A stretch of DNA of 64,000 nucleotides from the NCBI GenBank assembly GCA_903871605.1, contig CAIQHF010000043.1:34721-98720 (forward strand), written 5' to 3'. The stretch comes from an uncultured Sphingomonadaceae bacterium (GTDB taxonomy: Bacteria; Pseudomonadota; Alphaproteobacteria; Sphingomonadales; Sphingomonadaceae). Position numbers and translations under genes: made by a program. The notes under the pieces were generated by a model. That model worked only from the letters and a program-made list of their open reading frames with translations. It had not been told where the DNA came from and made no database searches. The stretch's first letter is position 1. The number at the start of each line of letters is the position of its first letter. This document shows, piece after piece, positions 1-8,881 of the stretch.

Positions 1-1218
1 CGACAGGATGCTGACGCAGGACATGCCGTCCTCGACCCCGTAGAAGCCACCCGAATTTTCCGCGATTGCGATCCGCGCGCCGGCCACCTGACGGCCCGCG
101 GCATCGCCGCGCAATTGGGCGACCAGCTCGTGGATCTGGGCGAGCCCGGTCGCCCCGAGCGGATGGCCCTTGGAAACGAGCCCGCCCGACGGATTGACCG
201 GAACGCGCCCGCCGATCGAGAAATCGCCACGCTCGGCGCCGGGGCCGCCACCCCCCGCCGCGCACAGCCCGAGCGCCTCGATCTGGACGATCTCGCCCGA
301 GGAACTCGCGTCGTGGACCTCGCCGAGATCGACGTCGGCCGGACCGATGCCGGCCATTTCATAGGCCGCGGCCGCGACCCCACGGGTGACGTGGCGGGCA
401 TAGTCGTCGGGCGCACGCGCGCGTCCGCTCTTCGAGCTGCAGGCGCGCACGCGGATCGGTCGATCGATCGCCAGCCGCCCGATCGCCTCCGCCGAACAGA
501 CGATGGCGGCAGCCGATCCGTCGCTGATCGGCGCGCACATCGGCACGGTCAGCGGCCAGGCGACCAGCCGCGCCGCGATCACCTCGTCGGTCGTCATCGC
601 CTTGCGATATTGCGACAGCGGGTTGTGCACCGAATGCGTGTGGTTCTTCGCCGCGACCGCCGCGATCTGGCGCGCCGTCGTGCCGTAGGTCGCCATGTGG
701 AGACGCGCCTGTGCCGCATAGGCGTCCATCAGCGCGTTGACGCTGGGCGCATCGGCGCCCGGCGGAGCCGGCGCCAGCTTGCCCGCGGTCGCGGCGAGAT
801 AGCGCTGCGCCTCCAGAATATCGAGCGGCTGCTGGAACACCGCGAACTTGCGCGCGGGATCGTCCGAATAGAGTTTCTCGGTGCCGACGACGAGCACCAC
901 GTCGGCGAGACCGGCGCGGACATAATCGAACGCGAGGTGGAAACCCATCGTGGCGCTCGCGCACGCCGCCTCGACGTGGATCGCGCGAACCCCCTCGATG
1001 CCCAGCGGACGCAGCGCGAATTCGCCGGGGATCGACATCTCGCCAGCGACGAAGCCCTGCGTGACATTGGCGTAGATCGCCATGTCAACCACACCCGCCA
1101 CCACCCCGGCATCGGCGAGCGCCTCGCGCACCGACGATTGGGTCAGCTGGCTGTGCGTCTTGTCGAGATGCCGGCCGAACGGCGTCATGCCGACACCGGC
1201 CACGAACACGTCGCGCAT
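1..1218 (-). CDS. Thiolase-family protein (SCP2-type/non-canonical thiolase), 3' end truncated by window edge
   Basis: Not in the ORF track (no stop in window). Manual translation from ATG 1218: MRDVFVAGVGMTPFGRHLDKT...HVEAACASATMGF...ENSGGFYGVEDGMSCVSILS. Start overlaps the upstream stop (TGATG). Confidence 0.85.
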   Translation of the reverse strand, partial: MRDVFVAGVGMTPFGRHLDKTHSQLTQSSVREALADAGVVAGVVDMAIYANVTQGFVAGEMSIPGEFALRPLGIEGVRAIHVEAACASATMGFHLAFDYVRAGLADVVLVVGTEKLYSDDPARKFAVFQQPLDILEAQRYLAATAGKLAPAPPGADAPSVNALMDAYAAQARLHMATYGTTARQIAAVAAKNHTHSVHNPLSQYRKAMTTDEVIAARLVAWPLTVPMCAPISDGSAAAIVCSAEAIGRLAIDRPIRVRACSSKSGRARAPDDYARHVTRGVAAAAYEMAGIGPADVDLGEVHDASSSGEIVQIEALGLCAAGGGGPGAERGDFSIGGRVPVNPSGGLVSKGHPLGATGLAQIHELVAQLRGDAAGRQVAGARIAIAENSGGFYGVEDGMSCVSILS

Positions 1219-2765
1219 CAGATCGTCCTTTCCCGGCCTTGCCAGAAGGGTCGCCGCAGCTCGGCGCGCAACACCTTGCCGGCGTTGCTGCGTGGCAGCG
1301 AATCGATGAAGCTCAGGCTCTTGGGTGTCTTCACCGGCCCCAGCCGCTCGCGCGCAAAGGCGAGTATGGCCGCCGTGTCGGCCGCGACACCGGCGCGCAA
1401 CTCGATCACCGCGGTGACGCTCTCGCCCCATTTGTCGTCGGGCACCCCGAACACCGCGCAATCCTGCACCGCCGGATGCGCCTGCAGCGCCTGCTCGACC
1501 TCTGCGGGATAGACGTTGAAGCCGCCGGTGATGATCATGTCCTTCTTGCGGTCGACGATGTAGAAAAAGCCGTCCTCATCGCGCATCCCGATGTCGCCGG
1601 TATGGTGCCAGCCGAAGCGCGAGACCTCCGCGGTCGCGCGCGGATCCTTGTAATAGCCCGCCATCACCAGCGGCCCGCGAACGACGATCTCGCCGCGCTC
1701 GCCGGGCGGCAGGATGGTGCCGTCGTCGTCCATAACCTCGACGATCGACAGAAGGTTGGCACGACCGCAGCTGCCCGGCCGCGCGAGATCGCCCCGGGCA
1801 TCGAGATGCTCGTGCGGCGGCAGCGCGGTGACGCACATCGGGCTCTCGGTCTGGCCGAAGCTGGCGTTCATCACCGGGCCGAACACCTCGATCGCCTCGC
1901 GCAGACGATCGAGCGACATCGGCGCGCCCGCATAGGAGATATATTCGAGGCTCGAGAGATCGCGGCGCCGCACGTCGGGCTCGCCGAGCAGCATGTAGAT
2001 CGCGGTCGGCGGCAGGAACATGTAGGTGACGCGGTGGCGCTCGATCGCGTCGAGCACCGCGGCAGGTTCGAATCTGGGAAGCACGACGACGGTACCCCCG
2101 AGCGCCATGCTAGCCAGCGCGAGCGGGCCCGCCGCGTGCGTCATCGGCGCCGCGACGCAGTTCACCGGCGCCACCTTCATCGGCATCGACGCGACCAGGC
2201 TCGACACCAGCGATTGCCAGACCAGATTCGTCAGCATCACCCCCTTGGAGCGGCCGGTGGTGCCGCCGGTCGCTCCGAGGAAGGCCAACTCCTCGGGGCG
2301 GCCCTCGCGTCGCTGCGCTACCTCGCCGTCGTCGCCCAGCCAGTCCTCGAGAAAGGCGTCGGCCTCCGGAAACGGCCGGTCGAGCGCGATGTAGCGGCGG
2401 ATCGTCGGGCAGTCGGCGCGGAAGCGCGCGATGCGATCGGCGACCTCGGAGTGGACGAACAGCGTGTCGACGTCGAGCAGGTCGAGCAGATAGGCGTTCT
2501 CGTCCTCGCTCGCGCGATGATTGGCCATCACCCACACGCCGTCGGCGCGCAGCAATCCCAATATGCACTCGAACGCGCGCGGATCGTTGCCGCTCAGCAC
2601 CGCGGCGTGCGCCCCGGACGCGAAACCGTCGCGGATCAGCCCGTTGCCGATGCGGTTGCTGCGCGCGCGCACCGCGTCATAGGTCCGCACGCGCTCGTCG
2701 GTGACGAGACAGGGCGACGCATGCGCGATGCGGGCGCCGCGATCGAAATAGTCGATCATCCGCAC
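1218..2765 (-). CDS. AMP-dependent acyl-CoA synthetase / CoA ligase
   Basis: TGGTTGRSKG P-loop, FGQTE, TGDIG, DRKKDMIITGGFNVYPAEVE, C-terminal GKVLR Lys; 515 aa. Confidence 0.93.
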   Translation of the reverse strand: MRMIDYFDRGARIAHASPCLVTDERVRTYDAVRARSNRIGNGLIRDGFASGAHAAVLSGNDPRAFECILGLLRADGVWVMANHRASEDENAYLLDLLDVDTLFVHSEVADRIARFRADCPTIRRYIALDRPFPEADAFLEDWLGDDGEVAQRREGRPEELAFLGATGGTTGRSKGVMLTNLVWQSLVSSLVASMPMKVAPVNCVAAPMTHAAGPLALASMALGGTVVVLPRFEPAAVLDAIERHRVTYMFLPPTAIYMLLGEPDVRRRDLSSLEYISYAGAPMSLDRLREAIEVFGPVMNASFGQTESPMCVTALPPHEHLDARGDLARPGSCGRANLLSIVEVMDDDGTILPPGERGEIVVRGPLVMAGYYKDPRATAEVSRFGWHHTGDIGMRDEDGFFYIVDRKKDMIITGGFNVYPAEVEQALQAHPAVQDCAVFGVPDDKWGESVTAVIELRAGVAADTAAILAFARERLGPVKTPKSLSFIDSLPRSNAGKVLRAELRRPFWQGRERTI

Positions 2766-2775
2766 CGGCGTGCGC

Positions 2776-4233
2776 TCAGCGTCGCAGCGTTAGGTCGAGC
2801 GCCTCGGAGCGAAGCCGCACATAGGGCGTCTTGGCGACCGCCATCAGCTTGCGCGCCTGCTCGAGCTCGGGCGACGACAATGTCGGATAGTCGCGGCGCG
2901 GCGGGCCGGCGCGGCGCATCTTCTCGATGTCCGACGCAGGCACCAGCGCGCGCAGGATCAGCTCGTCGTCGTCCTCGCCGGTGCCGTGCTGGCGGCGCAG
3001 ATCGTCGATGCTCGGCTGTTCGGGCGGATGCTCGACGATGTCCTTCGCACGCGGCGCCGCCATGATGCGGTCCATCACCTGCCCGTCGATCGGCGCGGGG
3101 GGCTCGCCATAATAGCCCGCGGCATATTGGATCACCTCGTCGGGCACGATGCCCCAGCGCTTGCCGGTGACGATGTTGAGCACCGCGACCGTGCCGACCA
3201 GCTGCGCGAACGGCGTCGCCATGCCGGGATAGCCGAGCTCGCGGCGGACCGCCGCGACCTCCTCCAGCACCTCGGGCAGTTTCTCGAGCATGTTCTGCTG
3301 GATCAGCTGGTTGCGGAGCGTACCCATCATCCCGCCGGGCACCTGCGAGGTCAGCGCCGCGACGTCATATTCATAATGCTGGTTGACCAGATAGCCTGCC
3401 GTCCGGCCGACGCGCTCGAAATGATCGGAGACGGGCTTGAGCAGCGCGGTGTCGATCCCGTGGCTGTGCCCCAGCGCCTCCATATTCTTGACCATGATGT
3501 CGATCGACGGGATCGAGGGGCCATTGGACATCGAGCGCGATGCGGTGTGCAGCACGGTCACGCCGAACTCGACCGCGTCGCAATAGGCCTTGGCGGACTG
3601 GCCGAGCATGTTGTTCGAATGCATCTCGATCGGCTTGCCGCGCGCCTTGGCGACGATCGCGGGCACCAGCGTCTTGATCCGGTCGCGATCGAGCACGCCG
3701 CCGGTGTCGTAGAGGAGAAGGCTGTCGACCTCGGGCAGCGCGGAGAGCTTGTCCGCCTTGTCCGCCCAAAAGGCGTCGTCATGGACCGGCGACAGCGTGA
3801 ACAGCATCGTGCCCGCGACCTTGCAGTCGTGCTTCTTCGCCAGGCTGGCGAGCCGCTGCATCTTGCCGATGTTGAACAGGACGTCGTAGATCCACCAGGA
3901 TCGCACGCCGTGCGCGCACAGCCGCTCCATCCACAGGTCCATCAGCGCGTCGGGCGTGAAGCCGAACGTCACCGAGCCGTTGGAGCGAATGCCACCGCGC
4001 ACCGGGGTCCGGCCGATCTGGCTCATCACCAGGTCGAGCCCCGCCCAGGGATCCTCCTGACAGTGGCGGATCAGCACCTCGAACAGCGAGGAGCCGGCGA
4101 AGCTGATCGTGTCGTAGCCCGTACGGTCGATCGTCGAGGCGACGGGATAGGCCATCCCGGCCTGCATCCGCATCCCCCACAGGCTCTGCTGGCCGTCGCG
4201 CATGGTCTCGTCGAGGAACTGGATATGCGCCAT
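2776..4233 (-). CDS. Biotin-dependent carboxyltransferase subunit (PycB/OadA TIM-barrel family), divergent active site
   Basis: DETMRDGQQSL, QVPGGMMGTL and ATPFAQLVG motifs; lies next to BC and BCCP genes. Confidence 0.85.
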   Translation of the reverse strand: MAHIQFLDETMRDGQQSLWGMRMQAGMAYPVASTIDRTGYDTISFAGSSLFEVLIRHCQEDPWAGLDLVMSQIGRTPVRGGIRSNGSVTFGFTPDALMDLWMERLCAHGVRSWWIYDVLFNIGKMQRLASLAKKHDCKVAGTMLFTLSPVHDDAFWADKADKLSALPEVDSLLLYDTGGVLDRDRIKTLVPAIVAKARGKPIEMHSNNMLGQSAKAYCDAVEFGVTVLHTASRSMSNGPSIPSIDIMVKNMEALGHSHGIDTALLKPVSDHFERVGRTAGYLVNQHYEYDVAALTSQVPGGMMGTLRNQLIQQNMLEKLPEVLEEVAAVRRELGYPGMATPFAQLVGTVAVLNIVTGKRWGIVPDEVIQYAAGYYGEPPAPIDGQVMDRIMAAPRAKDIVEHPPEQPSIDDLRRQHGTGEDDDELILRALVPASDIEKMRRAGPPRRDYPTLSSPELEQARKLMAVAKTPYVRLRSEALDLTLRR

Positions 4234-4240
4234 CAGCGCG

Positions 4241-5608
4241 TCACTCCGCAGCTATTGCGAGGCTCGGGAGCAGGGTCTGCTCGAGCCAGCGCGTGTGAAT
4301 GGTGTTGGCGACGAAATCGGGATGGGCGACGATCTCGCGGTGGAGCGGGATCGTCGTCGGCACGCCCTCGATGCGGAAATCGGCAAGCGCCTTTTGCAAG
4401 CGCTCGATCGCCTGGGCGCGGGTATCGCCGGTGACGATCAGCTTGCCGATCATGCTGTCGTAATATGGCGGGATCGTCGCCCCTTCGCCCATATGGCTGT
4501 CGAGGCGGATGCCGTCGCCTTCGGGCGGCTGCCAGCGCGTGATGCGGCCCGGCGACGGACGGAAATCGAGCGCCGGATCCTCGGCATTGATCCGGCATTC
4601 GATCGCATGACCCGCGATCGCGATATCCGACTGGTCGAGGCCGAGCGCCTCGCCGCCGGCGATGCGCAGCTGCCACTGGACCAGATCCTGCCCGGTGACC
4701 ATCTCGCTCACCGGATGCTCGACCTGGATGCGCGCATTGACCTCGATGAAGTAGATCTCCTGCCGCTCGACATCGTAGAGGAATTCGGCGGTGCCTGCGT
4801 TGCGATAGGCGACGCTCTTGGCCAGCCCGACCGCGGCGGCATGGAGCTGTGCGCGCAGCGCATCGGGCATCGCCGCGCAGGGCGCCTCCTCGATCAGCTT
4901 CTGGTAGCGGCGCTGAACCGAGCAGTCGCGCTCGCCGAAATGCAGCACCTTGCCGCGCCCGTCGCCCATCAGCTGGACCTCGACGTGGCGCGCCTTGCCG
5001 ACGAAGCGCTCCATGAACAGCGTGCCGTCGTTGAACGCGGCGAGCGCCTCGGCCGACGCCTTCTGGAACCCCGCCTCGACCTCGTCGCCGTCGTGCGCGA
5101 TCACCATGCCGCGTCCGCCCCCGCCCGCTGACGCCTTGAGCAGCACCGGATAACCGATCCGATCCGCCTCGCGGCGCGCATCGGAGGCGCTGGCGATCTC
5201 GTTGGTGCCTGGTACGAGCGGCACGCCCGCCGCCGCCGCCATCTCGCGCGCGCGCAGCTTGTCGCCGAGCGCCTCGATCATGTCGCCCTCGGGGCCGACG
5301 AAGACGATGCCATGCGCATCGCACAGCCGCGGCAGGACGGCGCGTTCCGAGAGGAAGCCATAGCCGGGGTGCAGCGCATCGCACCCCGTCTCGCGTGCGG
5401 CATGCACCACGAGCCGCGCGTCGAGATAGGATCTGGCGGCGGGCCCCGGCCCGAGGACGACGGCCCGATCGGCGAGCCGGGCGGCCGCGCTGTCGGTGTC
5501 CGCCGCCGAGACGCCGATCACCGTCTCGATACCGAGCGCCTGCGCGGCACGAACGACGCGAAGCGCGATCTCGCCCCGGTTGGCGACGAAGAGGCGGCGA
5601 ATGGCCAT
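4241..5608 (-). CDS. Biotin carboxylase subunit (AccC-like)
   Basis: ANRGEIALRV, HPGYGFLSE, KASAGGGGRGM, RDCSVQRRYQKLIEEAP, EVNARIQVEHPVSE, YYDSMIGKLI. Confidence 0.95.
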   Translation of the reverse strand: MAIRRLFVANRGEIALRVVRAAQALGIETVIGVSAADTDSAAARLADRAVVLGPGPAARSYLDARLVVHAARETGCDALHPGYGFLSERAVLPRLCDAHGIVFVGPEGDMIEALGDKLRAREMAAAAGVPLVPGTNEIASASDARREADRIGYPVLLKASAGGGGRGMVIAHDGDEVEAGFQKASAEALAAFNDGTLFMERFVGKARHVEVQLMGDGRGKVLHFGERDCSVQRRYQKLIEEAPCAAMPDALRAQLHAAAVGLAKSVAYRNAGTAEFLYDVERQEIYFIEVNARIQVEHPVSEMVTGQDLVQWQLRIAGGEALGLDQSDIAIAGHAIECRINAEDPALDFRPSPGRITRWQPPEGDGIRLDSHMGEGATIPPYYDSMIGKLIVTGDTRAQAIERLQKALADFRIEGVPTTIPLHREIVAHPDFVANTIHTRWLEQTLLPSLAIAAE

Positions 5609-5612
5609 CCGA

Positions 5613-6122
5613 TCAGCCCTTCGGATCGATCGCGAACAGCGGCTGGCCCGCCTCGACCATCGCGCCGTCGGTCGCCAGCACCTTCGCGACCCTGCCCGCC
5701 ACGCCGGCCCGGACCGCGGTAAACAGCTTCATCACCTCGACGAGGCAGAGGTCGCTGTCCGCCGTCACCTGCGCACCGATCTCGACATAGACGGGGTCGC
5801 CGGGCTTTGGTGCGCGGTAGAAGGTGCCGAGATAAGGGGCGCGGACGATCTCGAGACCGTCGAGGTCGTCCGCGCCAGGTGCCACCGGGGGCGGTGTTGT
5901 GGTCGTCCCGGCGACGGGGGGCAGAGCAGCGGCGGGGGGCGGAGAAGCGGCGGCGCCGGCTCGCGCGGGTGTCGCGCTGTGCTGGATCGTCGGCGATGCG
6001 GTGCCGTCGGTCGACAGATGCAGCTCGAACCCATCGAAGCGGATATGGAGTTCGGCGCAGTGCGACGCATCGAACCGCGCGACCAGCGCCTCGACATCCT
6101 CCGGGCGGATCGGATCAGCCAT
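5613..6122 (-). CDS. Biotin carboxyl carrier protein (AccB-like)
   Basis: Ala/Pro linker, APYLGTFYRAP, biotinylation motif EVMKL. Confidence 0.92.
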   Translation of the reverse strand: MADPIRPEDVEALVARFDASHCAELHIRFDGFELHLSTDGTASPTIQHSATPARAGAAASPPPAAALPPVAGTTTTPPPVAPGADDLDGLEIVRAPYLGTFYRAPKPGDPVYVEIGAQVTADSDLCLVEVMKLFTAVRAGVAGRVAKVLATDGAMVEAGQPLFAIDPKG

Positions 6123-7716
6123 GACGCAGCGCCTCGATCTCGTCGCGCGTCAGCCCGGCGCCGCGATCCTTCAGCCGGCGCGACTGACGCTGCTCGATCC
6201 GATACAGCGCGTCGACGCGCGGATCGTCGGGATGCCAGCGTATCCAGCTGTCGGAAAGCTTCCGGTAGTCGGGCGTCATCGCCGCGGGGGTGAAAGCCTG
6301 CGCGCGTTGGTTATACTCAGCAAGCGTCAGCCGGCCCTGCGTGGTCGTATAGACGTCGCGCTTGTCCGGATGGTGCGTCGATCCCGCGAGCGGCCGGTCA
6401 GGCGCAGCGGCGCCGGGTTCGTCGACGACGCTCAGCGGAACGTGCGACAGATAGCGCGCGGGGCGGTTGCTGTGCTGCATCATGCTGTAGGGGGACAGCT
6501 GCTGGCTCGGCAGGTCGACCAGCCCGACGAGCTCGCCGAGAAAATCGCGGCCGAACTCGTCGTTGAACAGATGGCGGAAACGATCGGCACGGTGGTCGAT
6601 CGTCATCCAGTCGTCGACGTCATAGACGCCCGCGACATGCGCCAGATCCTTGGGCATCGAGAAATAGATCAGCGCCCCCGCATCCATCATCTGGTCGCGC
6701 GACCATCCCGACATCTGCTTCCACAGCGCCACCGTCGCGTGCTTGAACGTCTCGGTCAGTCGCTCGAAGGTGTCGGCAAGCTCCTCGGCCGATCCCATGC
6801 CGACCGGCTGATAGCCCTCCGAGAGCACGTCCGACGTGTAGAGGCCGACACCGACCAGCTTGTCGCCGGTGAGTTCGGGGCGCGACTCGAAGCTGCCCCA
6901 ATCGTCCATCAGATAGAAATGGCAGTCCTTCACCGCCATCGTCACGGTCAGATGGTTGTAGGGAATGTCGTCGGCGACCCCATCGAGCCAGGGATAGTCG
7001 CCGACCGCGAGATCGGTGAAATCACGGACAATCATCTCGCGGTCGTCAGCGATACGATAGGGGCCGCTGTTGTTGAGCGTCACCCGGCTCTCGCAGCTGA
7101 CCAGGAACCCATATTGCGAGACGGCGGCGAGGAAGGTCTGCGCCGCCCTGTGGAGCCGGTCGCCCGCCACGCAGTCATGAAGATCGGCGTGGAAGACCTG
7201 GACGCGCCGCTCGGGCAGCGACTGGACACGCTGGCCGAATTCGCGTGCGTTGAGATGGCCGTCCTCGCGCTGGTAGGCGAGCTTGTAGCGCCGCCAGAAG
7301 TCCATGACGGTGATCACGTCCTCGGCATGATCCTCGGGCCGCAGCAGGCCGAAGTTGATCAGCATCTCGCGGCCAAGCAGGAAGAAGGTCGGCAGGCCCC
7401 AGCTCGGCAGGCTGCCGAACTTGCCGCCCATCGTCCGCGCGCGATCCCCGATCTCCTCGGCGCTCATCACCGCCTCGATCTTCCGCAGCAAGGCGGGATA
7501 GCGGTAGAAGCTCGTCAGATAGGAGAGCAGCATATAGGCCGGGACAGGGAATAGCTTGGATTCCTGGACCGTGCGCGTGACGCACAGCCAATAGGTGTCG
7601 TCGCCGATCGTCTGGATCGCATTATTGGCCTCGAGCACCGCGGCATAGCTCGGGCGGGCCACCGCCGGCGCCTCGACGATCCGCGCACCTTCCTGAATTT
7701 CGGACACTGACCGCAC
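6115..7716 (-). CDS. Hypothetical protein (~533 aa), first gene of the carboxylase operon
   Basis: Long ORF with typical codon usage. GTG 7716 is preceded by AAGGAG (alternative starts 7758/7785). Its end overlaps the BCCP start by 8 nt. No family motif recognised. Confidence 0.8.
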   Translation of the reverse strand: MRSVSEIQEGARIVEAPAVARPSYAAVLEANNAIQTIGDDTYWLCVTRTVQESKLFPVPAYMLLSYLTSFYRYPALLRKIEAVMSAEEIGDRARTMGGKFGSLPSWGLPTFFLLGREMLINFGLLRPEDHAEDVITVMDFWRRYKLAYQREDGHLNAREFGQRVQSLPERRVQVFHADLHDCVAGDRLHRAAQTFLAAVSQYGFLVSCESRVTLNNSGPYRIADDREMIVRDFTDLAVGDYPWLDGVADDIPYNHLTVTMAVKDCHFYLMDDWGSFESRPELTGDKLVGVGLYTSDVLSEGYQPVGMGSAEELADTFERLTETFKHATVALWKQMSGWSRDQMMDAGALIYFSMPKDLAHVAGVYDVDDWMTIDHRADRFRHLFNDEFGRDFLGELVGLVDLPSQQLSPYSMMQHSNRPARYLSHVPLSVVDEPGAAAPDRPLAGSTHHPDKRDVYTTTQGRLTLAEYNQRAQAFTPAAMTPDYRKLSDSWIRWHPDDPRVDALYRIEQRQSRRLKDRGAGLTRDEIEALRHG

Positions 7717-7798
7717 GACCCTCTCCTTGTCCGGGTCTCGTGCCCGCTGGTCGATCATGTGCCGCCCGAGACGAACCTCTGTCAAGACCGTTGGGCGT

Positions 7799-7813
7799 AA
7801 TCGTCGGACGATT
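7799..7813. promoter_or_regulatory. Perfect palindrome AATCGTC-G-GACGATT, candidate GntR/FadR-type operator
   Basis: 7-bp arms with a 1-nt centre in the divergent intergenic region. Confidence 0.45.
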
Positions 7814-7966
7814 TTGTCACTTTGTGGACGATGGCGCCCTTCCTGTGCCGCCCGCCATGCTTCGCCGTCCGGTTGCGGCGTCCGGCGTGCGCGGAAAAGC
7901 CACCAGCGCTTCCCCGCACCCCTGTCAGGCTGCTACGCCGGTGCGACGCGATGGACGGGGGATGCG

Positions 7967-8881
7967 ATGATCAGATCTTGGGCAGGCCGGGGCATGGCGC
8001 TTGGTGTCCTCGCGCTGCAGACGGTCCCGGCGGGCGCGCAGCCCGCCACACCGCCCCTGCCCGCCACACCGACCTTGCCCGCCGCGCTGACCACCGACCC
8101 GCCGCGCGACCCGCTCCATCCTGCACGGCTGGCCCAGATCCGTTTCACCACGCACGGACTCGCCGTCCCCGCGCGTTTGTTCGTCGCGGCCGGAGCGGGC
8201 ACGCATCCGACCATCCTGCTTCTGCACGGCTTTCCCGGGACCGAGCTCAACCTCGATCTCGCGCGCGTCCTTCAGCGCGACGGCTGGAACGTGCTGGCGA
8301 TACATTATCGCGGCGTCTGGGGCGCGCCGGGGCAGTTCAGCCTGACGCATGTCGTCGAGGACGCGCAGTCCGCGCTTGCCTGGCTGCGTTCGCCCGCGGC
8401 AGCGCCTTATGGCATCGACGCCGGACGGATCGTCCTGCTCGGCCACAGCATGGGGGGCTTCGCGACCGTCATGCTGGGTGCCGACAAGGGGGTTGCCGGC
8501 TACGTCCTGATCTCGGCGGCCGACATGGTGGCCGATACGTTGAAGGCGGCGGCGGAACCCAGCGAACGGGCGAGCTACGCGGACGATGCGAGCTACACCA
8601 ACGCCAGCTTCGACAGCCTCGCCGCCGACGTGCGCGCGCATGCGCGGGCGTGGGACTGGACGACGCGCGCCGCGCTGATGGCGGGGCGTCCGGTACTGGT
8701 TCTGACCTCGGACGATGGCCTGGCGCCAAGCGACGATGCGGCCGCGGCGGCGGTGGCGCAGGCCGGCGGCCCGGCGCCGACGGTCGAGCATATGACCACC
8801 GACCACAGCTATAACGATCATCGTATCGCGCTCGCCGCGACGATCGTCCGCTGGCTCGACGCCCACTTTCCGAAACGCTGA
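7967..8881 (+). CDS. Exported alpha/beta hydrolase (Ser-type)
   Basis: Signal-peptide-like N-terminus (LGVLALQTVPAGAQ), HGFPG oxyanion motif, GHSMGG elbow, late His (DHSYNDH). Confidence 0.85.
   Translation: MIRSWAGRGMALGVLALQTVPAGAQPATPPLPATPTLPAALTTDPPRDPLHPARLAQIRFTTHGLAVPARLFVAAGAGTHPTILLLHGFPGTELNLDLARVLQRDGWNVLAIHYRGVWGAPGQFSLTHVVEDAQSALAWLRSPAAAPYGIDAGRIVLLGHSMGGFATVMLGADKGVAGYVLISAADMVADTLKAAAEPSERASYADDASYTNASFDSLAADVRAHARAWDWTTRAALMAGRPVLVLTSDDGLAPSDDAAAAAVAQAGGPAPTVEHMTTDHSYNDHRIALAATIVRWLDAHFPKR

What the first reader, a model, noticed from the sequence alone, without database searches (positions are those of the whole stretch)
6115..7716. Large unknown protein heading the carboxylase operon
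Seen: a 533-aa soluble-looking protein rich in Trp/Tyr/Asp/His (YWLCVTRTVQESKLFP, SCESRV, DDWGSFES) whose end overlaps the BCCP start. I recognise no family motif. Inference: a fourth subunit or the substrate-forming enzyme of the carboxylase system.
Basis: partly seen in the sequence, partly recalled or inferred. Interest (0 to 1): 0.62.

Follow-up and report, generated by a model that had tools for sequence, protein, structure and literature searches.

The report
Orphan acceptor subunit of split dikinase
The 533-residue orphan protein is real and strongly conserved, but it is probably not a carboxylase subunit: it looks like the substrate-binding part of an undescribed four-protein ATP-driven kinase that phosphorylates an unknown ketone before a biotin carboxylase, a CoA ligase and a thiolase degrade it.

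Summary
The ORF at 6115-7716 (minus strand) is a real gene. It has a strong ribosome-binding site, GC3 of 0.85, and hundreds of homologues at 57-92% identity. It matches no Pfam, NCBIfam or PDB sequence. Its AlphaFold model is very confident (pLDDT 94.5, pTM 0.93) and has no Foldseek match in the PDB.

Comparative genomics, however, ties it to a kinase rather than to the carboxylase:
- In other lineages it sits directly after a phosphohistidine "swivel" protein (PF00391).
- Distant relatives are fused to that domain.
- Some homologues are fused to a 200-aa protein ("p204") that lies beside a truncated pyruvate phosphate dikinase.
- All three partner genes lie just outside this window, behind a dedicated SurE phosphatase.

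The conserved set is four kinase proteins, BCCP, biotin carboxylase (BC), a PycB-like carboxyltransferase (CT), a phosphatase, a CoA ligase and a thiolase. This repeats the "phosphorylate, carboxylate, dephosphorylate" logic of the Hpe/Acv acetovanillone pathways, but the kinase is not the Hpe/Acv type.

Best reading (about 0.6): the protein is the acceptor-substrate module of a split PPDK-type dikinase. The substrate is unknown. Nothing has been tested biochemically.

The parts
6115..7716 (-). Target: 533-aa orphan protein. Proposed acceptor-substrate module of a split PPDK-type dikinase. Core is residues ~25-400; the C-terminal extension ~400-533 is seen only in relatives that have p204 and the truncated PPDK nearby.
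   Evidence: ORF; homologues; AlphaFold pLDDT 94.5, pTM 0.93; no PDB fold match; linked to PF00391 by fusion and adjacency.
7721..7730 (-). Shine-Dalgarno region (ACAAGGAGAG) ahead of GTG 7716.
   Evidence: Read directly from the sequence.
5613..6122 (-). Biotin carboxyl carrier protein (169 aa). Its start overlaps the target's stop by 8 nt.
   Evidence: PF00364, 59 bits; TIGR00531-like; overlap seen.
4241..5608 (-). Biotin carboxylase (455 aa).
   Evidence: PF00289, PF02786 and PF02785; NF006367 at 602 bits, above its cut-off.
2776..4233 (-). PycB/OadA-like carboxyltransferase (485 aa) with a remodelled metal site: Lys->Tyr at the carbamyl-lysine position, and HxH->HSN.
   Evidence: PF02436; PDB 2nx9 at E 2e-62 with alignment; comparison alignments A5 and A6.
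1218..2765 (-). AMP-forming acyl-CoA ligase (515 aa).
   Evidence: PF00501 and PF13193; closest to NF004837 (387 bits, below its cut-off of 476).
1..1218 (-). Thiolase (SCP-x / Thiolase_C_1 type, ~408 aa). Its start overlaps the ligase stop by 1 nt, and its last 9 nt run off the window start.
   Evidence: ORF; orthologues carry PF00108, PF02803 and PF22691.

Best explanation
The protein is one of four components of a split, PPDK-derived small-molecule dikinase. The other three are encoded 1-4 kb beyond the window's left edge. They are a 248-aa protein with a C-terminal phosphohistidine swivel domain (PEPut), a 201-aa protein with a winged-helix domain and a helical bundle (p204), and a truncated pyruvate phosphate dikinase with an ATP-grasp and a swivel domain but no PEP/pyruvate-binding barrel (PPDKN). 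Proposed mechanism (inferred): PPDKN uses ATP to load a phosphoryl group onto a swivel histidine. The swivel domain of PEPut carries it to the target, which binds the acceptor substrate in a site lined by the family's conserved Arg, Tyr, Trp and Asp residues (R48, R116, R143, R211, Y220, R231, W243, D272). There the substrate is phosphorylated. The target therefore takes the place of the missing C-terminal domain of PPDK, or of the rifampin-binding-like domain of HpeH/AcvA. p204 probably tethers the target to PPDKN. The phosphorylated ketone would then be carboxylated on its methyl or methylene group by the BCCP/BC/CT carboxylase, dephosphorylated by the dedicated SurE paralogue, activated by the CoA ligase and cleaved by the thiolase. 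The substrate is unknown. A hydroxylated, probably phenolic, ketone is the best guess.
For: 1. Fusion and adjacency to the swivel domain. The target's residues ~30-400 are homologous (26-34% identity, E 1e-20 to 1e-45) to a ~375-aa family. Two members carry an N-terminal PF00391 domain in the same chain (P0174, P0179). One member is preceded by a 114-aa PF00391 gene with an 8-nt overlap.
2. Gene order. In 34 of 80 related loci (57.6-62.6% identity) the order is thiolase, ligase, PEPut, TARGET, ligase2, p204, PPDKN, BCCP, BC, CT. In 36 loci (67.6-78.8% identity) it is the order seen here: TARGET, BCCP, BC, CT, ligase, thiolase | SurE | PEPut, p204, PPDKN.
3. Fusion to p204. P0121 and P0123 (726 and 728 aa) are target homologues whose C-terminal ~200 aa align with p204.
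4. Own genome. SurE, PEPut (PF00391), p204 and PPDKN (PF01326 + PF00391; NF004531 at 669 bits, cut-off 456) lie directly beyond the thiolase. The genome also has a full-length PPDK-sized copy and a second SurE elsewhere, so the local copies are dedicated paralogues.
5. Co-occurrence. Of 35 loci with at least 9 kb on both sides, 33 have PEPut in the flank. All four genomes checked in which the held flank shows no kinase gene, including both of the remaining full-flank loci, carry a p204 orthologue elsewhere at 58-62% identity.
6. Deep relatives keep the kinase set. L100 (33% identity) reads PEPut, target-like, p204-like, PPDKN, with no carboxylase in 12.6 kb. L098 is similar.
7. A phosphatase always travels with the set, but its family changes. 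It is SurE in proteobacteria. On two Rhodococcus plasmids that carry the whole system it is Y_phosphatase3, and eight proteobacterial loci carry a Y_phosphatase3 gene as well. In the known Hpe/Acv pathways it is a HAD enzyme (PMC9618137; bioRxiv 10.1101/2022.04.28.489975).
8. The catalytic histidine motif is present in PEPut (GGSVRSH) and in PPDKN (GGATSH).
9. Precedent. In HpeHI the substrate-plus-swivel component alone transfers phosphate between substrates (PMC12167813). A truncated PPDK, VadK, autophosphorylates its histidine and co-purifies with its operon partner (PMC13400623).
Against: There is no biochemical evidence. No coordinates were available from the model, so I could not check whether the conserved residues form a pocket or face a docking surface. 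The system has two swivel domains (PEPut and PPDKN), and their division of labour is unexplained. In this genome the target is translationally coupled to BCCP rather than to PEPut, which would also fit a role at the carboxylase. Short relatives on contigs L005-L007 have a swivel domain but no ATP-grasp gene nearby, so the domain could instead be a donor-side module.
Confidence: 0.6

Rival explanations
1. The target is a fourth, non-catalytic or substrate-presenting subunit of the biotin carboxylase. It binds the (phospho)ketone and hands it to the remodelled CT.
For: Its stop overlaps the BCCP start by 8 nt. It heads the carboxylase operon in 36 sphingomonad-type loci, and CT is present in 35 of 35 loci with full flanks. 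The associated CTs have all lost the carbamyl-lysine ligand (Tyr or Glu instead), so they might need help from a partner.
Against: In 34 loci the target is separated from BCCP by ligase2, p204 and PPDKN, and it directly follows PEPut. Relatives at 33-35% identity keep the kinase genes with no carboxylase seen on their contigs. Fusions are to PF00391 and to p204, never to BCCP, BC or CT. In the other gene order it is PPDKN whose end overlaps the BCCP start, so coupling to BCCP is a feature of operon position, not of this protein.
Confidence: 0.12
2. The target belongs to the kinase but is not the acceptor site. It is a donor-side or relay module that loads or unloads the PEPut histidine from another phosphoryl donor or from PPDKN, or it is a scaffold. 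The true substrate site would lie elsewhere, for example in the N-terminal ~150 aa of PEPut or in p204.
For: Short relatives paired with a swivel domain have no ATP-grasp gene on their contigs. Two swivel domains imply some relay step. p204 has invariant His/Asp/Glu motifs (NDH, YHT, HE) that could form a metal or active site.
Against: The cluster already has an ATP-grasp donor, and what it lacks compared with PPDK is exactly an acceptor domain. The target is the largest and best conserved orphan in the set, at 57-79% identity across the alpha- and gammaproteobacterial loci. The order swivel domain then target-like domain in the fusions mirrors swivel then PEP/pyruvate domain in PPDK, PEP synthase and Enzyme I (established domain order of those enzymes, from my own knowledge).
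Confidence: 0.15
3. The target is an enzyme for a different step, for example a lyase, isomerase or decarboxylase acting on the phosphorylated beta-keto acid, and it is merely co-regulated with the kinase.
For: The fold is unknown, so no chemistry can be excluded. The conserved Asp and Arg residues would also suit such enzymes.
Against: Covalent fusion to a swivel phosphohistidine domain and to p204 points to direct participation in phosphotransfer. The kinase, carboxylase, phosphatase, ligase and thiolase already account for every step of a complete Hpe-like route.
Confidence: 0.06

Closest known systems
HpeHI / AcvAB (also PpsAB, CreHI): two-component phenolic dikinases of the rifampin-phosphotransferase type, feeding HpeCBA / AcvCDE (PMC9618137; PMC12167813; bioRxiv 10.1101/2022.04.28.489975)
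   Same: The system logic is the same: an ATP-grasp and swivel-histidine kinase, a PycB-like three-part biotin carboxylase, a phosphatase, then a CoA ligase and a C-C cleaving enzyme. The kinase is split into separate proteins.
   Different: This kinase has four proteins. Its ATP-grasp component is PPDK-type (NF004531) and keeps its own swivel domain. The presumed substrate module (the target) shows no sequence or fold similarity to the rifampin-binding-like domain of HpeH. The phosphatase is SurE or Y_phosphatase3 rather than HAD. The CT lacks the carbamyl-lysine.
Pyruvate phosphate dikinase / PEP synthase, C-terminal PEP/pyruvate-binding TIM barrel (PF02896)
   Same: Proposed role: the domain that receives the phosphoryl group from the swivel histidine and passes it to the acceptor. 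In the fused relatives it lies C-terminal to the swivel domain.
   Different: There is no PF02896 match. The predicted secondary structure is a helical bundle, then a six-stranded sheet, then helices, which is not an alpha/beta barrel. It is a separate polypeptide.
VadK (Rv1127c) with its operon partner Rv1126c, M. tuberculosis (PMC13400623)
   Same: The locus's PPDKN is a truncated PPDK (ATP-grasp plus histidine domain, no PEP domain). That is the domain layout reported for VadK, which autophosphorylates on His422 and binds its small operon partner tightly. Here too a ~200-aa gene directly precedes the truncated PPDK.
   Different: VadK is described as a regulatory histidine kinase with no known small-molecule acceptor module. 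Homology of p204 to Rv1126c was not tested here, and no target homologue is known from that organism.
Tm-1-like (UPF0261) kinase, BCCP, BC, CT and HAD cluster on pBAR1 of Sphingomonas bisphenolicum AO1 (L104)
   Same: This is another case of a PycB-like carboxylase and a phosphatase joined to a kinase of a different family. It supports the idea that the kinase module is interchangeable.
   Different: It has no target, PEPut, p204 or PPDKN. Its CT keeps the canonical Lys and HxH. Its function is inferred from annotation only.

Membership tests
Biotin-dependent carboxylase subunits (BC, BCCP, CT) | Sequence or fold homology to an ATP-grasp BC, a biotinyl domain, or a crotonase-type or TIM-barrel-type CT | tested here: not met
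   No Pfam, NCBIfam or PDB sequence hit. No Foldseek hit (best E 0.5, TM <= 0.13).
Biotin-dependent carboxylase subunits (BC, BCCP, CT) | Constant genomic association with the carboxylase genes across the family | tested here: inconclusive
   CT is present in 35 of 35 full-flank loci of the close family. Relatives at 33-35% identity show kinase genes and no carboxylase on 12-15 kb contigs.
RPH-type small-molecule dikinase, substrate component (HpeH / AcvA / PpsA / CreH) | Rifampin-binding-like substrate domain | tested here: not met
   No PDB chain matched by sequence, profile or fold at E<=0.1; none of the weak hits listed is a rifampin phosphotransferase or a PPDK.
RPH-type small-molecule dikinase, substrate component (HpeH / AcvA / PpsA / CreH) | Swivel phosphohistidine domain (PF00391) in the same polypeptide | tested here: not met
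   The target has no PF00391. The domain is on the separate PEPut protein, and it is fused only in distant relatives P0174 and P0179.
RPH-type small-molecule dikinase, substrate component (HpeH / AcvA / PpsA / CreH) | Catalyses phosphotransfer from phosphohistidine to a small-molecule acceptor | not testable with these tools
   This needs enzyme assays with labelled ATP and candidate ketones.
PPDK / PEP synthase / Enzyme I PEP-pyruvate-binding domain (PF02896) | TIM-barrel domain matching PF02896 | tested here: not met
   No PF02896 hit in the target or in 25 diverse relatives. The predicted topology is not a barrel.
Hpe/Acv/Xcc-type 'phosphorylate, carboxylate, dephosphorylate' ketone pathway (system level) | ATP-grasp plus swivel-histidine kinase genes in the gene set | tested here: met
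   PPDKN (PF01326 + PF00391) and PEPut (PF00391) are in the own genome and in 33 of 35 full-flank loci.
Hpe/Acv/Xcc-type 'phosphorylate, carboxylate, dephosphorylate' ketone pathway (system level) | Three-part biotin carboxylase with a PycB/OadA-like CT | tested here: met
Hpe/Acv/Xcc-type 'phosphorylate, carboxylate, dephosphorylate' ketone pathway (system level) | A dedicated phosphatase in the set | tested here: met
   A SurE paralogue is present (two SurE genes in the genome), found in 29 of 35 full-flank loci. Rhodococcus plasmids carry Y_phosphatase3 instead, and 8 proteobacterial loci carry it as well.
Hpe/Acv/Xcc-type 'phosphorylate, carboxylate, dephosphorylate' ketone pathway (system level) | Kinase subunits orthologous to HpeH/HpeI (AcvA/AcvB) | tested here: not met
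   The ATP-grasp protein is PPDK-type (NF004531, 669 bits; it scores only 47 bits against the rifamycin-phosphotransferase model, whose cut-off is 999). The target and p204 have no counterpart in the published hpe or acv clusters.
Hpe/Acv/Xcc-type 'phosphorylate, carboxylate, dephosphorylate' ketone pathway (system level) | Substrate is a 4-hydroxyphenyl methyl ketone | not testable with these tools
   There are only indirect hints: a tyrosine-phosphatase-type enzyme in some versions, and aromatic-catabolic neighbours in the window and on the Rhodococcus plasmids.

The most novel reading that the evidence does not exclude
The target family is a previously unseen protein fold that serves as a plug-in acceptor module for truncated, VadK-type PPDKs. 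If so, 'orphan' truncated PPDKs would generally be phosphoryl donors for separate small-molecule-binding subunits reached through a two-histidine relay. In this operon the module might even phosphorylate the enol of a non-phenolic ketone, giving an enol phosphate as the carboxyl acceptor of a biotin enzyme.
Probability: 0.15. Interest if true: 0.85.

Novelty: new variant of a known kind. Interest (0 to 1): 0.66.

Why it matters
Pathways that phosphorylate a ketone and then carboxylate it were discovered only in 2022, and only one kinase type is known for them. This locus shows that the same carboxylase logic is served by a different, four-protein kinase built around a truncated PPDK. The kinase includes an orphan protein with a confident model and no fold relative in the PDB, and the family occurs in at least 319 species genomes across Alpha- and Gammaproteobacteria and on Rhodococcus plasmids.

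Working out its substrate would add a catabolic route that could be useful for lignin or pollutant conversion, and would define a new acceptor module for swivel-histidine phosphotransfer. It could also suggest what truncated PPDKs such as VadK of M. tuberculosis, whose acceptor is unknown, hand their phosphate to.

Tried and rejected
- Family assignment failed by every route tried: Pfam and NCBIfam on the target, Pfam on 25 diverse relatives, PDB sequence search with the single sequence and with an 86-sequence profile, and Foldseek against the PDB. The only faint fold hints were START / helix-grip domains at probability 0.04, which I did not accept.
- I tested whether the 214-aa gene after the fused relative in L005 equals p204. 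It does not (E 0.24).
- I looked for the VadK partner Rv1126c among p204 homologues. The list of the best 120 held only close orthologues, all unnamed or 'hypothetical', so that link stays untested. The named control genomes do not include a mycobacterium.
- Foldseek on the p204 model found only a generic winged-helix match over 70-90 residues.
- Literature searches for this gene combination found no paper describing it. Searches on Rhodococcus oxybenzonivorans S2-17 found no paper that I could link to this cluster; I did not open any of the listed papers.
- The promoter scan of the divergent region 7600-8100 found no sigma-70-like site.
- I could not fetch AcvE, HpeB or XccA sequences to compare CT active sites. 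The pBAR1 CT was used as an Acv-like stand-in.
Full report
**1. The observation**

The minus-strand ORF 6115..7785 is 556 aa from its first TTG. The closest homologue, P0001 (92% identity), is also 533 aa.

The three quoted motifs are at residues 42, 207 and 271. The protein is acidic (pI 5.4), has no hydrophobic segment of membrane type, and is mildly rich in Trp, Tyr, Asp and His compared with its operon neighbours. GC at the third codon position is 0.85.

The stop codon overlaps the ATG of the next gene in ATGGCTGA. [quoted passage not shown] It is followed by:
- a biotin carboxylase (BC);
- a PycB/OadA-like carboxyltransferase (CT);
- an AMP-forming CoA ligase;
- a thiolase whose start overlaps the ligase stop by one base.

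**2. No known family and no known fold**

- Pfam gives only a sub-threshold DUF1707 hit, and NCBIfam gives nothing.
- Neither the sequence nor an 86-sequence profile matches any PDB chain at E<=10.
- An AlphaFold2 model built on that alignment is very confident (mean pLDDT 94.5, pTM 0.93).
- Foldseek against 350,542 PDB chains finds nothing better than E 0.5 with TM 0.13 or less.

The predicted layout is an N-terminal bundle of seven helices (24-206), a six-stranded sheet (214-294), further helices (310-399), and a mostly irregular C-terminal part (400-533).

**3. The family**

The word-indexed search found 941 homologues. The best 120 are 69-92% identical, and every one is unnamed or 'hypothetical'.

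The exhaustive search of 50%-identity representatives found 428 clusters. These include full-length relatives down to 33% identity. They also include a set of ~375-aa proteins that match only residues ~30-400, at 26-34% identity.

In 25 diverse sequences the invariant or near-invariant residues are R48, P57, Y61, P74, G115, R116, R143, R211, G218, P219, Y220, R231, W243, D272, P280, Y351, G363 and W370. A cluster of conserved arginines suits a site that binds an anion such as a phosphoryl group. This is an inference.

Within the window's own family-level taxon the gene is patchy: 7 of 201 genomes, and absent from two genomes of the same genus. Across species-representative genomes it occurs at 319 loci. 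These are in Sphingomonadaceae, Steroidobacteraceae, Porticoccaceae, Roseiarcus, Rhodobacteraceae and other Alpha- and Gammaproteobacteria. It is also on two Rhodococcus megaplasmids. It is therefore an accessory, horizontally mobile gene under strong constraint.

**4. What it travels with**

Four independent links tie the protein to a swivel-histidine phosphotransfer system.

- *Fusion and adjacency to the swivel domain.* Two of the short relatives carry an N-terminal PF00391 'PEP-utilizers' mobile domain in the same chain. Another is preceded by a 114-aa PF00391 gene with overlapping stop and start.
- *Fusion to p204.* Two full-length homologues of 726 and 728 aa carry a C-terminal ~200 residues that align with a free-standing 201-aa protein, here called p204.
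- *Own genome.* I fetched the DNA to the left of the window. Directly beyond the thiolase lie three things:
  - a SurE gene on the opposite strand;
  - then, on the target's strand, a 248-aa protein with a C-terminal PF00391 domain (PEPut) and p204;
  - then a truncated pyruvate phosphate dikinase (PPDKN). It has PF01326 and PF00391 and scores 669 bits on NF004531 (cut-off 456), but has no PEP/pyruvate-binding domain.

  The genome also has a full-length PPDK-sized copy and a second SurE elsewhere, so the local copies are extra, dedicated paralogues.
- *Synteny in 80 loci.* tblastn of the ten proteins against the 80 fetched loci shows two gene orders:

| Gene order | Loci | Identity to target |
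|---|---|---|
| target, BCCP, BC, CT, ligase, thiolase \| SurE \| PEPut, p204, PPDKN | 36 | 67.6-78.8% |
| SurE \| thiolase, ligase, PEPut, **target**, second ligase, p204, PPDKN, BCCP, BC, CT | 34 | 57.6-62.6% |

Among the 35 loci with at least 9 kb on both sides, CT is present in 35 and PEPut in 33. I checked four genomes whose held flank shows no kinase gene, including both of the remaining full-flank loci. Each carries a p204 orthologue elsewhere at 58-62% identity.

The Rhodococcus plasmids show the second order. There the thiolase has a DUF35 partner, and a Y_phosphatase3 'tyrosine phosphatase' is present where the proteobacterial loci have SurE.

Deeper relatives keep the kinase genes. 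L100 (33% identity) reads PEPut, target-like, p204-like, PPDKN, then TetR, thiolase and DUF35, with no carboxylase in 12.6 kb. L098 is similar.

**5. Interpretation**

The gene most constantly found next to this family is the swivel-histidine gene, not BCCP. The overlap with BCCP in this window is a consequence of operon position. In the other gene order it is PPDKN whose end overlaps the BCCP start.

Compared with a normal PPDK, the cluster encodes the ATP-grasp donor and the swivel carrier but lacks the domain that presents the acceptor. The target is the large, highly conserved orphan that is fused or adjacent to the carrier. The most economical reading is that it is the acceptor-substrate module of a split dikinase.

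The C-terminal extension (~400-533) is found only in relatives that have p204 and PPDKN nearby, and it is the point at which p204 is fused. I therefore suggest that it docks p204, which in turn holds PPDKN. This is an inference from few cases.

*Shown here:* the gene content, fusions, synteny, domain assignments, model confidence, and the absence of fold relatives in the PDB.

*Inferred:* the direction of phosphoryl flow, the acceptor role, the function of the second swivel domain, and the substrate.

**6. The pathway**

The whole set reproduces the logic of the Hpe pathway of Rhodococcus rhodochrous GD02 and the Acv pathway of Sphingobium SYK-6:
- a dikinase phosphorylates a 4-hydroxyphenyl methyl ketone;
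- a PycB-like biotin carboxylase carboxylates only the phosphorylated form;
- a phosphatase removes the phosphate;
- a CoA ligase and a cleaving enzyme finish the route (PMC9618137; bioRxiv 10.1101/2022.04.28.489975).

In HpeHI the ATP-grasp protein and the substrate-plus-swivel protein are homologous to rifampin phosphotransferase domains. The substrate component alone can exchange phosphate between substrates (PMC12167813).

The present kinase is not of that type. Its ATP-grasp protein is PPDK-like, and the target has no similarity to the rifampin-binding-like domain.

Three unrelated phosphatase families (HAD, SurE, Y_phosphatase3) accompany equivalent gene sets. This argues that the phosphate survives carboxylation, and so that it sits on a hydroxyl group away from the reacting carbon. 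That disfavours, but does not exclude, an enol-phosphate mechanism.

A tyrosine-phosphatase-type enzyme, the aromatic-catabolic neighbourhood of this window, and a 4-hydroxyphenylacetate-hydroxylase-like gene beside the cluster on the R. pyridinivorans plasmid hint at a phenolic ketone. The substrate remains unknown.

**7. Related observations**

*The carboxyltransferase.* The CT here is unusual. Aligned with OadA (PDB 2nx9), it keeps the RDG Asp and the first His. It has Tyr where the carbamylated Lys should be (LLYDTGG) and Asn in place of the second His (HSN). The comparison with other CTs:

| CT source | Carbamyl-Lys position | HxH motif |
|---|---|---|
| This window and proteobacterial locus L064 (second gene order) | Tyr | HSN |
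| Rhodococcus plasmid pRB98 and metagenome contig L101 (target-associated) | Glu | HxH kept |
| pBAR1, Sphingomonas bisphenolicum (Acv-like) | Lys kept | HxH kept |
| OadA, Catenovulum adriaticum plasmid | Lys kept | HxH kept |

*pBAR1.* That cluster pairs BCCP, BC, CT and HAD with a Tm-1-like (UPF0261) ATP-binding protein, next to a carotenoid-oxygenase-family gene. It is a further hint that kinase modules are swapped around this carboxylase.

*VadK.* The truncated PPDK has the same domain layout as VadK (Rv1127c) of M. tuberculosis. VadK autophosphorylates on histidine and co-purifies with its small operon partner Rv1126c (PMC13400623). I did not test whether p204 is homologous to Rv1126c.

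*p204.* The p204 model (pLDDT 95.3) is a winged-helix domain followed by a helical bundle with invariant NDH, YHT and HE motifs. Only the winged helix has PDB relatives.

**8. Earlier notes of this scan**

After I had formed my reading, I found that other agents had described the second gene order in other genomes and had reached a similar conclusion. These notes are not independent evidence. The VadK lead came from one of them. I checked it only as far as the NCBIfam assignment and the published paper.

**9. Verdict**

The protein is a member of an uncharacterised family with no known fold relative. It is best explained as the acceptor module of a new, four-protein, PPDK-derived version of the small-molecule dikinases that prime ketones for biotin-dependent carboxylation. 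I am about 85% confident that it belongs to the kinase rather than to the carboxylase, and about 60% confident that it is the acceptor site.

Noticed in passing
window 2776-4233 (-): The carboxyltransferase has Tyr at the carbamyl-lysine position (LLYDTGG), HSN instead of HxH, and RDGQQS instead of RDAHQS. Target-associated CTs on a Rhodococcus plasmid and metagenome contig L101 have Glu at the Lys position but keep HxH. An Acv-like CT on plasmid pBAR1 keeps both canonical features.
   Followed up: partly
L008 9946-13988 (= G000:C43, 12 to 4054 bases left of window position 1): The window edge cuts off the rest of the system: a SurE paralogue (plus strand), then PEPut (248 aa), p204 (201 aa) and a truncated PPDK on the minus strand, with overlapping or abutting stops and starts. 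The genome has a second SurE (C45) and a full-length PPDK-sized copy (C6).
   Followed up: yes
L104 (Sphingomonas bisphenolicum AO1 plasmid pBAR1, 65201-80312): A cluster reading carotenoid-oxygenase-family gene, aldehyde dehydrogenase, BKACE-family gene, Tm-1-like (UPF0261) ATP-binding protein, BCCP, BC, CT, HAD phosphatase. It may be a third kinase type paired with an Acv-like carboxylase in a bisphenol-A degrader.
   Followed up: partly
L102 and L103 (Rhodococcus oxybenzonivorans pRB98; R. pyridinivorans pA): Beside the full system lies a second operon: a 126-aa swivel protein, a 398-aa orphan, a 543-aa swivel + target-like fusion, and a 381-aa protein with a faint DUF7065 hit. The target matches 3-4 places in each plasmid, so the family has local paralogues.
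   Followed up: partly
L008 11676-12281 (-) and alignment A4: p204 has invariant NDH (114-116), D122, YHT (180-182), W184, HE (188-189) and R193. This looks like a metal or catalytic site in a helical bundle that follows a winged-helix domain.
   Followed up: partly
loci L053-L086 (second gene order): A second AMP-binding ligase (about 35% identical to the window's ligase) sits between the target and p204. Its role in a kinase operon is unexplained.
   Followed up: no
29 of 80 related loci, e.g. L014 17740-18450 (-): A GntR/FCD regulator lies between the thiolase and SurE in many sphingomonad loci. It is absent at that position in the window's genome, where the thiolase and SurE genes nearly abut.
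   Followed up: partly
L008 8530-9513 (+), and L017, L031, L045: An APH-family phosphotransferase gene (65-72% identity between loci) recurs near the system in several genomes.
   Followed up: no
window 7964-8881 (+): A divergently transcribed alpha/beta hydrolase (PF12697 and others) with a signal-peptide-like N-terminus. The longest ORF, from 7727, is probably over-extended.
   Followed up: partly
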